Shown: piece after piece, positions 18,939 to 32,575 of the stretch
Layout: every line of letters begins with the position of its first letter
How positions within the stretch are numbered: the stretch's first letter is position 1
Source: a virus
Taxonomy: Duplodnaviria > Caudoviricetes
IMG/VR virus record: IMGVR_UViG_3300035102_000318
Location: 1 to 39,913 of that record
Length of the DNA: 39,913 nt
Direction: 5' to 3' (one strand)
Translations under genes and position numbers: made by a program
The notes under the pieces: generated by a model
What the model was told of the DNA's origin: nothing
Database searches by the model: none
Seen by the model: the letters and a program-made list of their open reading frames with translations, nothing else

Positions 18939-19481
18939 TCACCGCCCCCTCCCGAGGAGGAAGTCCTGGGCGGTCCGCTGGATATTCACCCGGTCCTCGT
19001 CCTGAACGACCACAAAGTTCCGGGCCGGGATGTCGCCCCAGGGGATGGCCTGGTTCCGGGTGTGGGCCTTGACCGCGACCGTTCCGTATTTCTCGGTGAC
19101 CCGCGTATGGGCCGCCACCTTGACGGCCACGGTCCCAAAGGCTCCTTTCTTGGCGCCGAAATGGAGAGTGCCTCCCTGGACCTTGGGCGTGCCGACCTTC
19201 AACTTGTCGCCCTCGACCACGTAGTGGATCGAACCCATGAGCCCGCCGCCCATACCCTTGACCACCAGGGGCTTGTTCCCCTTGCGGCGCTTCAGCGTCA
19301 CTGGGGAGAGCGGCGCCCACTTGGTCGGCCTGCCTCCCACTTCGAAATTCCGCTGGATCGAGGTCACCAGAATCTGCCCCGCGATCTTGAGCAGCGCCGG
19401 GCGGTCCTCCATCCTGGCCCGCACGCCGAAGAGCATGCCCAGGACTTCCCGGGACCTGACCTTCATACTGACGCCGCTCAT
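18939..19481 (-). CDS. Virion morphogenesis protein (Mu gpG family)
   Basis: 'NF...GRP..W.PLS..T', 'L..SI', 'VGT......HFG' and 'IPAR.F' motifs. Confidence 0.9.
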   Translation of the reverse strand: MSGVSMKVRSREVLGMLFGVRARMEDRPALLKIAGQILVTSIQRNFEVGGRPTKWAPLSPVTLKRRKGNKPLVVKGMGGGLMGSIHYVVEGDKLKVGTPKVQGGTLHFGAKKGAFGTVAVKVAAHTRVTEKYGTVAVKAHTRNQAIPWGDIPARNFVVVQDEDRVNIQRTAQDFLLGRGR

Positions 19482-19510
19482 TTGACTTTTCCCTTCTCCG
19501 GGCTTATGTT
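19482..19510 (+). promoter_or_regulatory. Putative sigma70 promoter, antisense to the late operon
   Basis: TTGACT (19482-19487), 17 bp spacer, TATGTT (19505-19510). Confidence 0.65.
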
Positions 19511-19516
19511 TTTGTT

Positions 19517-19619
19517 GACGGTCGGGGGTGGCCGCAGCCAGATACCCCTTGACCCGGCACCCGCCTGCTGCGGCAGGAGCGAGGGTTCGTGAAAAGGTCG
19601 CCCCAGTGGCGGCCTTTTC
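19517..19619 (+). ncRNA. Candidate ~100-nt structured small RNA convergent with the MuF-nuclease gene
   Basis: Own promoter, two hairpins with complementary apices (GCCGCAGC 19531-19538 / GCTGCGGC 19567-19574), then an intrinsic terminator. Confidence 0.6.
19592..19618 (+). terminator. Intrinsic terminator (possibly bidirectional)
   Basis: AAAA-GGTCGCC-CCAGT-GGCGGCC-TTTT. The U-G pair favours the + strand. Confidence 0.7.
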
Positions 19620-20871
19620 AATTCTTGGAAAAGAGCAGGCGACCCTGGCGTTGGTTGTTCATGTAGCGGCGGTTGGGGCTGGTGATCATGGTCCAGGCCT
19701 CCATGATGCCGCCCTTGGCCTGGGTCACCAGCAACGCCGTCCGGTCCTTGTCCGTCCTGATCATCTTGAGGAACCGCTGCCGGAGCACCACCTTGCCTGT
19801 CCCCTTGTGCCGTTCGAAGCTGGCCCACACTTCATGCGGATCGGTGATGGCTTCGGGCACCCAGGGCAGATACGGAGTCCTGTCCGGCGCAAGGTGCCTG
19901 CTCATGGATTTAGCATTGACCAGCACCGGGTTCCGGAATCCGTGCATGTCCGCGAGGAAAATCTTCTCTTCTCCTCCGAGGATGTCCTTGAGGGCGGCCT
20001 CGGCCTCCTTGGCCGTGCCCATCACCCGGCCGACCGGCACGTCGGACGCGTCCGGAACGAGCTGTTCCGCCAGCCCCTCACTCTCCCAACCCCCGGGTGT
20101 CAGCCGCTCCCAGGCGTCCCCCTTCATGGCCCGCCATTGGTTCATGGCCTTCTCGGACAGCTTGCTTCCCCAAGCTGCCCGGCCGGGGTTATAGTCCCAG
20201 CCCGGGCCTATCCCGACCGGCAGCTGCTGGACCTCGCCGGTCTTGCGGTCGGTCCACTCGTATAATTGATCCTCCGGTGCCTCGGTGCGGATAGGGAAAG
20301 GGCCGTCCTTCTCGTCGTCGACGAGCTGCTCGAGAGCGTACTTGGACAGGGCCTGCGCCCCGCACTTGCAACCGTAGTCGTTGGGCGGATAGTGGGTCTC
20401 CCACCACGGGTCGTCAGCGGGAAGGACCACGTTGTACCAGCGCATGTGCTCGGGCCTGGGCTCGGCCGAACTGGACGGCATGTAGCGCCAGTACGGCATG
20501 GCCTCGAGCACGTCCGGGTCGGTCATTTGCTTGTACCGCCCGGCCGAGTAGGCCACGGACAGGTTGGTGTCGTAGATGATCGCTGTGCGCCAGCCCCGGC
20601 TGCCCTTGTACTTCCAGCCGTGCCGCTCCACGATCTTGTCGAAGTCCTGCCGGAACTCCTCGAGGGTGGTGCCGTCGGCGATGGCCTTGTCCACGGCGCC
20701 GCGCAGATCGGCGAGCAGATCGGACTCGGCGGCCCCGGCCACGACAAAGGCTCGGGAGTGCATGCCGCCCATGATGTCGTCCCACGCCTGGGTGGGCAGG
20801 CTGACTTTGTCCCGGAAGTATTCCAGGGCGTCGTCAAAGGGGAGGCTTACGCCCTCAACGCTCCGACGCAT
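19618..20871 (-). CDS. MuF (gp30) minor head protein with C-terminal putative PBECR-type nuclease domain
   Basis: MuF motifs (AF.VAG, I..TN...AY.AGR..Q, R.EH..W, PPN.YGC.C, GW.YNPG). An extra ~130-aa domain ends '..R..Y...I.DP.EVW...R.....Y....R.G.LLF'. Confidence 0.85.
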   Translation of the reverse strand: MRRSVEGVSLPFDDALEYFRDKVSLPTQAWDDIMGGMHSRAFVVAGAAESDLLADLRGAVDKAIADGTTLEEFRQDFDKIVERHGWKYKGSRGWRTAIIYDTNLSVAYSAGRYKQMTDPDVLEAMPYWRYMPSSSAEPRPEHMRWYNVVLPADDPWWETHYPPNDYGCKCGAQALSKYALEQLVDDEKDGPFPIRTEAPEDQLYEWTDRKTGEVQQLPVGIGPGWDYNPGRAAWGSKLSEKAMNQWRAMKGDAWERLTPGGWESEGLAEQLVPDASDVPVGRVMGTAKEAEAALKDILGGEEKIFLADMHGFRNPVLVNAKSMSRHLAPDRTPYLPWVPEAITDPHEVWASFERHKGTGKVVLRQRFLKMIRTDKDRTALLVTQAKGGIMEAWTMITSPNRRYMNNQRQGRLLFSKN

Positions 20872-32214: not shown

Positions 32215-32287
32215 GCTGCTTTCCCTTCGGCTGCTCATCAGGCCCGGGCCGCCACGCCCGAACGACCGCCCCGCAGGGCGGTTTCGC

Positions 32288-32575
32288 TTATTTGTTCAGG
32301 GCCTCCTTCAGAACCTTGCCGGGTTTGAACTTCACTCCGACCGAGGGTGCGATCTCGACGGCCTCGCCGGTCCTGGGGTTACGGCCCTTGCGGCCCTTAC
32401 GTGTCACCGGCTCAAAGGAGCCAAAGCCGGTAATGACAACCTTCTCGCCCCGGATCAGGGCGTTGTGGAGGCTGTCCAGCATGCCGTTAACGGCGCGGAT
32501 CGCCGTGGCCTTGTCGTAGCCGGACTCCTGGCACATTGCTTTGTGGGTCGCGTCGATCAGTTCGGTCTTGTTCAT
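32288..32575 (-). CDS. HU family DNA-binding protein
   Basis: MNKTELI...GFGSF....RKGR.GRNPRTGE...I......KFKPGK.LK signature. Confidence 0.95.
   Translation of the reverse strand: MNKTELIDATHKAMCQESGYDKATAIRAVNGMLDSLHNALIRGEKVVITGFGSFEPVTRKGRKGRNPRTGEAVEIAPSVGVKFKPGKVLKEALNK

What the first reader, a model, noticed from the sequence alone, without database searches (positions are those of the whole stretch)
19482..20050. MuF-nuclease 'toxin' followed by a pseudoknot-like small RNA instead of an immunity gene: candidate RNA-antitoxin or phage-defence system
Seen: the MuF protein carries a C-terminal extension resembling PBECR RNase-fold domains. The 136 bp behind it hold no plausible immunity ORF. 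They instead hold a complete opposite-strand unit: TTGACT-N17-TATGTT, hairpin 1 (GGTCGGGGGT...ACCCCTTGACC), hairpin 2 (CCTGC-TGCG-GCAGG) and a terminator touching the MuF stop. The two hairpin apices are exact 8-nt complements (GCCGCAGC / GCTGCGGC), allowing a kissing loop or a switch. Known: MuF polymorphic toxins usually have a downstream protein immunity gene, and type III antitoxins are pseudoknotted RNAs that inhibit RNases. Inference: the lysogen constitutively makes an RNA that neutralises, guides or is the substrate of a virion-delivered RNase. Alternatively it acts as antisense against late-operon leakage.
Basis: partly seen in the sequence, partly recalled or inferred. Interest (0 to 1): 0.88.

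Follow-up and report, generated by a model that had tools for sequence, protein, structure and literature searches.

The report
Phage toxin with RNA immunity partner
Many Mu-like phages carry, right behind a head protein fused to a predicted RNA-cutting toxin, a conserved gene for a predicted small RNA whose two hairpin loops pair with each other; it is lost whenever the toxin domain is deleted or decays, so it likely serves as an RNA antidote where a protein antidote was expected.

Summary
MuF (19618-20871, minus strand) ends in a PBECR2 domain. The 136-bp gap behind it holds an opposite-strand sigma-70 promoter and two hairpins with complementary 7-nt loops. In 43 homologues all 7 loop-loop pairs show two-sided changes, and G-U wobbles (17 G-U against 2 A-C) point to the promoter's strand. 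A mechanical promoter-plus-kiss test finds the element behind 91 of 112 PBECR2 domains that keep two predicted pocket residues. It finds it behind 0 of 9 domains that lost them and 0 of 30 MuF genes without the domain. Near-identical MuF pairs gain or lose domain and RNA together. The RNA also follows PBECR2 without MuF and occurs in cultured Thermus, Meiothermus and Rhodobacter phages. I found no Rfam family and no paper on it. Best reading: a trans-acting RNA antitoxin (immunity RNA) for a virion-borne colicin-D-like RNase, working like type III toxin-antitoxin systems but not a member of them. Not shown: transcription, toxicity, binding. The terminator is not conserved, which keeps antisense silencing alive as the main rival.

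The parts
19618..20871 (-). MuF (gpF) minor head protein, 417 aa: Phage_Mu_F at residues 56-171 and C-terminal PBECR2 RNase-fold domain at 313-414; predicted pocket residues H326, R331, T394
   Evidence: Pfam; PHROG 220; conservation; fold match to colicin D/E5/CdiA-CT at Z 4.2-4.8
19482..19510 (+). sigma-70-type promoter (TTGACT, 17 nt, TATGTT), convergent to the late operon; the -35 box abuts the gpG start codon
   Evidence: conserved position and consensus in homologues
19520..19554 (+). hairpin 1: about 10-bp outer stem, bulge, 3-bp apical stem
   Evidence: 13 of 13 pairs show a change on both sides
19532..19538 (+). loop 1, 7 nt, pairs with loop 2
19555..19589 (+). hairpin 2 with asymmetric internal loop; directly adjoins hairpin 1
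19567..19573 (+). loop 2, 7 nt, complementary to loop 1
19592..19619 (+). terminator-like hairpin touching the MuF stop codon (lineage-specific, not conserved)
   Evidence: fold
18939..19481 (-). gpG / neck-1 gene, the next gene of the late operon (context, not part of the module: relatives have gpI or non-coding DNA here and keep the RNA)

Best explanation
The element is a conserved promoter plus a predicted 75-100 nt RNA whose two hairpin loops base-pair, and it likely acts as an RNA antitoxin that would bind and block the predicted colicin-D-like RNase (PBECR2) fused to the phage head protein MuF. Shown by calls: the promoter, the covarying two-hairpin/kissing-loop fold on the promoter's strand, the PBECR2 domain, and the joint gain and loss of intact domain and RNA. 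Inferred: (1) host RNA polymerase makes the RNA in lysogens and soon after infection, independent of late-gene activation; (2) the folded RNA occupies the RNase pocket, probably as a mimic of a tRNA-like stem-loop substrate; (3) this protects the cell while MuF is made in bulk during head assembly and makes lysogens immune to toxin arriving in sister virions; (4) cells without the RNA suffer transient RNA cleavage on infection until the incoming genome makes its own RNA. Domain plus RNA behave as one swappable cassette, like the toxin tip plus immunity gene of polymorphic toxins.
For: Covariation: RNAalifold on an unguided MAFFT alignment of 43 homologues returned only the loop-loop helix, with 6 of 6 pairs showing two-sided changes. 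For the full structure, 27 of 28 pairs show two-sided changes and 86.6% of cells pair, against 36-49% when slid. The kiss replicates in 21 sequences not used before (78.9% paired against 27-54% slid). 28 of 28 distinct loop pairs match at 6 or 7 of 7 positions, against 39% of cross-pairings. G-U:A-C is 17:2 in the kiss and 73:24 in stems, which fixes the strand. Co-occurrence by a mechanical call (promoter score and kiss score): 91 of 112 PBECR2 with R/H331 plus T/S/N/D394, 0 of 9 without (Fisher p 1e-6), 0 of 30 MuF without PBECR. In 13 phylogenetically independent pairs, on average 10.1 go the same way, 0 opposite and 2.9 tie, sign test p about 0.002. Held-out metagenome loci: 19 of 19 intact domains carry it (13 by model at E<0.01, 2 weak model hits, 4 by eye) and 0 of 4 decayed ones do. 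Near-identical MuF pairs differ by the whole cassette: L202/L209 (99% DNA identity up to the domain), L178/L199, L205/L189. PBECR2 without a MuF domain in the fetched locus keeps the RNA (L082, L099). A different PBECR family has its own kissing-loop RNA, lost in the two members that lack the His. 89.4% of MuF toxins are followed by a small immunity-like ORF (PMC5576092), and the RNA sits in that slot. PBECRs belong to the Colicin-like group, whose pocket uses His plus Arg/Lys and whose studied members cut tRNA (bioRxiv 2026.08.28.747851).
Against: No direct evidence of transcription, toxicity, injection or RNA-protein contact. The sRNA table of R. capsulatus SB1003, the RcapMu lysogen (PMC5546546 Table S1), has no entry matching four motifs of RcapMu's distant homologue; that table is filtered and may miss structured RNAs. 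Only 12 of 122 positive loci have a strict terminator, so most transcripts would run antisense into the toxin coding end, as an antisense regulator would. Co-occurrence with an intact domain is predicted equally by antisense silencing. The two-residue rule was fixed after seeing the first set; it was then tested on held-out loci, where 3 of the 4 negatives are one clade. The mechanical call misses 21 of 112 intact loci (19 judged present by model or eye; L098 has none; L100 is unclear) and finds only 2 of 14 in the second RNA family. Fold matches are weak (Z 4.8 at best; Foldseek none). Iyer 2017 argues PBECRs may spare tRNA and target mRNA or crRNA.
Confidence: 0.55

Rival explanations
1. Type-I-like antisense control. 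The convergent promoter and its transcript silence leaky MuF-PBECR2 expression by base-pairing with the 3' end of the toxin message or by polymerase collision; the kissing fold only stabilises the RNA.
For: Convergent layout at the toxin's 3' end; no strict terminator in 110 of 122 loci; in several homologues the RNA overlaps the last codons (L008, L044, L052, L064, L154, L158). It also predicts loss when the toxin decays.
Against: Antisense pairing needs no intramolecular loop-loop covariation, yet this is the best-conserved feature. In this window and at least 12 other loci a terminator stops the RNA at or near the stop codon, and in L017 it lies about 60 nt away. It could not protect against protein carried in a virion, and it would oppose the essential late operon.
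Confidence: 0.2
2. The RNA is a cofactor, cargo or dedicated substrate rather than an inhibitor.
For: The two hairpins adjoin with a 0-1 nt linker, so the kiss could be intermolecular (geometry is my inference). MuF is a head protein (PHROG 220). pRNA multimerises by kissing loops (PMC4201828, search listing only). Iyer 2017 proposes anti-CRISPR roles for PBECR.
Against: The RNA is absent from short-MuF phages and from SfMu, MP22, Fc22 and SS2019XII, where gpG abuts gpF, so it is not needed for packaging. It stays with PBECR2 when MuF is absent. Loop sequences track each other, not an outside target.
Confidence: 0.15
3. A cis element of the late mRNA or a new self-cleaving ribozyme that processes the F-G junction or controls gpG translation.
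For: Self-cleaving ribozymes are enriched near Mu-like phage genes (PMC10085705 passage) and this genome has a type II hammerhead; the -35 box abuts the gpG start.
Against: Wobble pairs place the fold on the opposite strand to the mRNA. The element persists when the next gene is gpI or none and vanishes when gpG stays but the domain decays. No Rfam ribozyme match, and no invariant column in 43 sequences.
Confidence: 0.07
4. Chance hairpins in GC-rich intergenic DNA.
For: The 74-nt core alone folds at z -0.8.
Against: Two-sided covariation in two independent sequence sets and strict co-occurrence.
Confidence: 0.01

Closest known systems
Type III toxin-antitoxin systems (ToxIN, AbiQ, TenpIN, CptIN)
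   Same: RNase toxin paired with a pseudoknotted non-coding RNA proposed to inhibit it by direct binding (definition from PMC12373285 passages).
   Different: Single-copy RNA, not tandem repeats; own convergent promoter downstream, not co-transcribed upstream; BECR/colicin-like toxin, not ToxN-like; toxin fused to a virion protein; loop-loop kiss between two hairpins.
AbiF/RCd22 (HEPN toxin with RNA antitoxin)
   Same: Prophage-encoded RNase with its own RNA partner, a second, unrelated origin of RNA antitoxins.
   Different: HEPN fold; RNA upstream with two abiF motifs (RF03085); no Rfam match here.
MuF polymorphic toxins (Jamet 2017; Zhang 2012)
   Same: MuF N-terminus with a swappable C-terminal toxin domain in the head module of temperate phages; the cassette swaps between near-identical MuFs.
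   Different: The slot of the small immunity ORF (89.4% of 191 toxins) is filled by an opposite-strand RNA gene.
PBECR domains (Iyer 2017), including the inactive MuF-C of phage Mu
   Same: Same Pfam family and His plus Thr/Ser pocket.
   Different: The passages I saw mention no associated RNA; MuF-C phages lack the RNA.
Type I TA with convergent 3'-overlapping antitoxin (txpA/RatA type; names recalled, not from a call)
   Same: Convergent small RNA at the toxin's 3' end.
   Different: Toxin is a 417-aa structural fusion, not a small peptide; the RNA has a covarying tertiary contact.
phi29 packaging RNA
   Same: Phage RNA with two complementary loops near head-assembly functions.
   Different: Dispensable in related phages and tied to the nuclease, not to the portal or terminase.

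Membership tests
PBECR2 (PF18810) | Profile match over the curated cut-off | tested here: met
   70.4 bits against cut-off 27.1; ESM Atlas top clusters are PBECR2 at 0.92-0.94
PBECR2 (PF18810) | [quoted passage not shown] | tested here: met
   H326 and T394 conserved in at least 90% of 44 homologues; description
Colicin-like BECR RNase | Colicin D/E5-like fold | tested here: inconclusive
   Top five VIA-align rows are CdiA-CT, a TA toxin, colicin E5 and colicin D, but at Z 4.2-4.8, rmsd 3.1-4.2, 75-86 aligned
Colicin-like BECR RNase | RNase activity and toxicity | not testable with these tools
   needs assay
MuF polymorphic toxin | MuF N-terminal domain plus variable C-terminal toxin in the head module | tested here: met
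   portal upstream, gpG/gpI/gpT downstream
MuF polymorphic toxin | Small downstream immunity ORF | tested here: not met
   no ORF of 25 aa or more wholly within 19482-19617; the slot holds the RNA element in relatives
Type III TA | Antitoxin made of tandem repeats | tested here: not met
   one model hit in the whole window; single unit in the alignment
Type III TA | Antitoxin co-transcribed upstream of the toxin, terminator between | tested here: not met
   RNA is downstream, on the opposite strand, with its own promoter
Type III TA | ToxN/AbiQ-like toxin | tested here: not met
   domain is PBECR2 by Pfam
Type III TA | Pseudoknotted RNA | tested here: met
   loop-loop helix covaries; topology differs from ToxI
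Type III TA | RNA binds and inhibits the toxin protein | not testable with these tools
   no protein-RNA prediction or assay available
Type I TA | Antitoxin base-pairs with the toxin mRNA and lowers it | tested here: inconclusive
   complementary to the intergenic part of the late transcript; terminator in only 12 of 122
Any Rfam 15 family | Score at gathering threshold | tested here: not met
   window and 40 homologous loci: no match to the element

The most novel reading that the evidence does not exclude
RNA immunity is the rule for a whole class of phage-borne polymorphic RNases. Several PBECR lineages (PBECR2 His-type, PBECR2 Lys/Arg-type, PBECR1/3-like) each carry their own kissing-loop RNA, swapped together with the toxin tip as one cassette. 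The RNA is a tRNA-like decoy that makes lysogens immune and lets an infecting phage switch off the toxin it has just injected. This would be a third independent origin of RNA antitoxins and the first RNA immunity factor of a polymorphic toxin.
Probability: 0.45. Interest if true: 0.93.

Novelty: new variant of a known kind. Interest (0 to 1): 0.86.

Why it matters
It would show that immunity to a delivered polymorphic toxin can be an RNA, extend RNA antitoxins to the BECR fold, and give a first handle on what MuF and PBECR domains do, which is open since phage Mu. It defines a widespread structured RNA family that Rfam lacks, with several subtypes. It also offers a genomic marker (RNA present or absent) for which PBECR domains are active. 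Cultured, harmless models carry it (Thermus phage Riverbug, Meiothermus MMP17, Rhodobacter RcapMu and RcWaterboi, Rhizobium RR1-B), so it is directly testable.

Tried and rejected
Rfam: nothing for the element in the window or 40 homologous loci. BLASTN of the element against cultured phages gave only chance hits. No RNA holder was listed among public runs; four DNA runs laid on the stretch gave contigs only. Foldseek against PDB had no match at E<=0.001. Model R1 was built with a mis-registered structure and not used; R2 replaced it. A first, more complex residue rule misclassed 6 domains and gave only p about 0.07 with the mechanical call on the tree; the simpler two-residue rule is reported. 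tRNA mimicry through a fixed anticodon is rejected, since the loop centres vary widely. A hammerhead reading of the L081-type RNAs was rejected by eye (core order does not fit). Earlier scan notes held nothing. Literature searches gave no description of the RNA; 'PBECR2' occurs in one paper of the library. The supplements of PMC10690425 had no PBECR or MuF terms in 6 files, but 3 files could not be searched, so an unnamed candidate there is possible; most subscription journals are not covered. Rows dropped before counts: L007, L023, L025, L066 (frameshifted, cut or spurious; L007 has the RNA); L070-L074 and L132 (duplicates); L075, L096, L113, L114, L118, L121, L122, L124, L126, L127, L130, L131 (gene end or downstream DNA outside the locus, or not resolved); L138, L188, L197, L212 (incomplete); L153, L157, L192 (in-frame TGA); L110 (too little downstream DNA). 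In the held-out set, L242, L258 and L265 were dropped (frameshift or cut contig), as were L267 and L268 and 22 near-duplicates.

Full report
Context. The window is a 39.9-kb virus record of a Mu-like transposable phage: transposase and transposition protein, portal, MuF, gpG, gpI protease and gpT capsid, all on the minus strand. MuF (19618-20871) is Phage_Mu_F plus PBECR2. 91 relatives of the C-terminal part, all with PBECR2, were found; those that carry a name come mostly from sulfate-reducing bacteria.

Observation. Between the MuF stop and the gpG start lie 136 bp with one promoter-like site on the plus strand, two hairpins with complementary loops and a terminator-like hairpin. Rfam has no match.

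The RNA is conserved and covaries. I fetched 66 loci by the C-terminal domain. Most show the same opposite-strand promoter about 100-135 nt behind the stop, followed by the same two hairpins. On a plain MAFFT alignment of 43 non-redundant, hand-picked clear cases, RNAalifold returned only the loop-loop helix, with two-sided changes at all 6 pairs. For the full structure, 27 of 28 pairs show two-sided changes and 95% of kiss cells pair. The shuffle control ignores relatedness, but the slid controls drop to 36-49%. A second set of 21 sequences not used before gave the two hairpins de novo and kept the kiss (78.9% paired despite a rough alignment, against 27-54% slid). All 28 distinct loop pairs match at 6-7 of 7 positions, against 39% of cross-pairings, and G-U outnumbers A-C 17:2 in the kiss, so the folded strand is the promoter's. 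The conserved helix is 6-7 bp. The terminator is not conserved: 12 of 122 loci by a strict test.

The RNA goes with an intact nuclease domain. I widened the set by PBECR2 profile, by MuF profile, by the MuF N-terminus regardless of its tail and by cultured phages. That gave 190 gene ends, 166 non-redundant, 165 scorable. Tails were classed by Pfam (83 of them; the rest by my own profile and by eye). A mechanical call (promoter score at least 10 and kiss score at least 26) was positive for 91 of 121 PBECR2, 0 of 23 short MuF, 0 of 4 other toxins and 0 of 3 Mu-type tails. Splitting PBECR2 by two pocket residues (R/H331, and T/S/N/D394) gave 91 of 112 against 0 of 9. On a MuF tree, 13 independent pairs went the same way 10.1 times on average and never the opposite way (p about 0.002, FastTree). 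Of the 21 intact misses, I judge 19 present from model R2 or by eye; L098 lacks it and L100 is unclear. The residue rule was set after seeing these data, so I tested it on new metagenome loci: 19 of 19 intact domains carry the RNA and 0 of 4 decayed ones do, three of the four being one clade.

Natural experiments. L202 and L209 share 99% DNA identity through the MuF core and 90% in gpG; L202 has a PBECR1-like tip plus an RNA, L209 has neither. L178/L199 and L205/L189 differ in the same way, with a decayed domain and no RNA in one partner. The RNA stays when the next gene is gpI or absent and when PBECR2 has no MuF in the fetched locus (L082, L099). In SfMu, MP22, Fc22 and SS2019XII gpG abuts gpF; Iyer 2017 calls Mu's own domain inactive.

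Wider family. Distant PBECR2 clades carry variant RNAs with the same logic, some with a closing stem. A PBECR1/3-like family has a distinct RNA whose loops also covary by eye (10 sequences aligned; present in 12 of 14 by eye but only 2 of 14 by the mechanical call, and absent in the two members without the His). Cultured phages with the element: Thermus Riverbug, Meiothermus MMP17, Rhizobium RR1-B, Rhodobacter RcWaterboi and RcapMu (read by eye).

The protein. The AlphaFold model (pLDDT 81) has CdiA-CT, a TA toxin, colicin E5 and colicin D as its top five matches, but weakly (Z 4.2-4.8). The colicin D range 604-697 aligns to model 75-165, which, if ungapped, puts H326 on His611 (catalytic role of His611 recalled). 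PBECRs are placed in the Colicin-like group, whose studied members cut tRNA.

Mechanism. The RNA sits in the slot where 89.4% of MuF toxins have a small immunity ORF. It has its own host-type promoter, is kept only while the pocket is intact, and conserves shape more than sequence. The simplest account is an antitoxin that binds the RNase (0.55). Antisense silencing explains the co-occurrence too and fits the missing terminators, but not the conserved kiss (0.2). A cofactor or cargo role (0.15) and a cis element or ribozyme (0.07) fit worse. Nothing here shows expression: the RcapMu homologue is not in a published SB1003 sRNA table.

Comparison and novelty. It would work like a type III antitoxin but fails three defining features (repeats, upstream co-transcription, ToxN-like toxin; definitions). 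Ten literature searches found no description (listed under Tried and rejected). Papers seen: PMC5512222, PMC5576092, PMC12373285, PMC10085705, PMC8601537 (passages); bioRxiv 2026.08.28.747851 (passages and one section); bioRxiv 2026.07.01.735769 (abstract and outline, not relevant); PMC10690425 (supplement search, 6 of 9 files); PMC5546546 (passages, supplement part 1 of 30 and two searches); PMC4201828 (listing only). Verdict: a real, widespread structured RNA family, undescribed as far as these searches reach and tied to phage PBECR nucleases; a new variant of the RNA-antitoxin kind; interest 0.86.

Noticed in passing
window 32225-32289 (-): Type II hammerhead ribozyme, 78 bits, E 6e-15, between a DNA-binding gene and the next early gene, overlapping both gene ends.
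   Followed up: no
L001, L028, L029, L030, L034, L116, L153, L157, L192, L225, L226, L232, L267 (MuF CxC motif): In 13 of 110 distinct MuF CxC motifs one cysteine codon is TGA, at either position and usually followed by a hairpin. Likely selenocysteine; if so, host selenium supply would gate synthesis of full-length MuF and its toxin tip.
   Followed up: partly
L107, L108, L179, L187, L193-L195, L202, L204, L206, L211, L213, downstream of MuF: A second, distinct opposite-strand RNA family behind PBECR1/3-like domains, with covarying loop complementarity; no Rfam match for L107 and L108.
   Followed up: partly
L081-L084, L086-L089, L091, L094, L095, L097, L099: Variant RNAs with a closing stem that joins the 5' and 3' ends, behind a PBECR2 subclade with Asn in place of Thr394; one genome (G079) has four PBECR2 matches.
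   Followed up: partly
L090, L101, L102: About 900-aa frames ending in PBECR2, probably portal-MuF-PBECR2 fusions, that keep the RNA.
   Followed up: no
L026/L220, about 220 nt behind the first RNA: A second, weaker model hit (E 4e-5) in the same gap, before gpG: possibly a duplicated or orphan RNA copy.
   Followed up: no
window 19482-19487: The -35 box is the reverse complement of the bases just before the gpG start codon in most relatives, so promoter and start region share sequence.
   Followed up: partly
L030 3021-3120: A palindromic insert of about 20 nt in the bulge of hairpin 1 leaves both loops intact, marking a tolerated insertion site.
   Followed up: no
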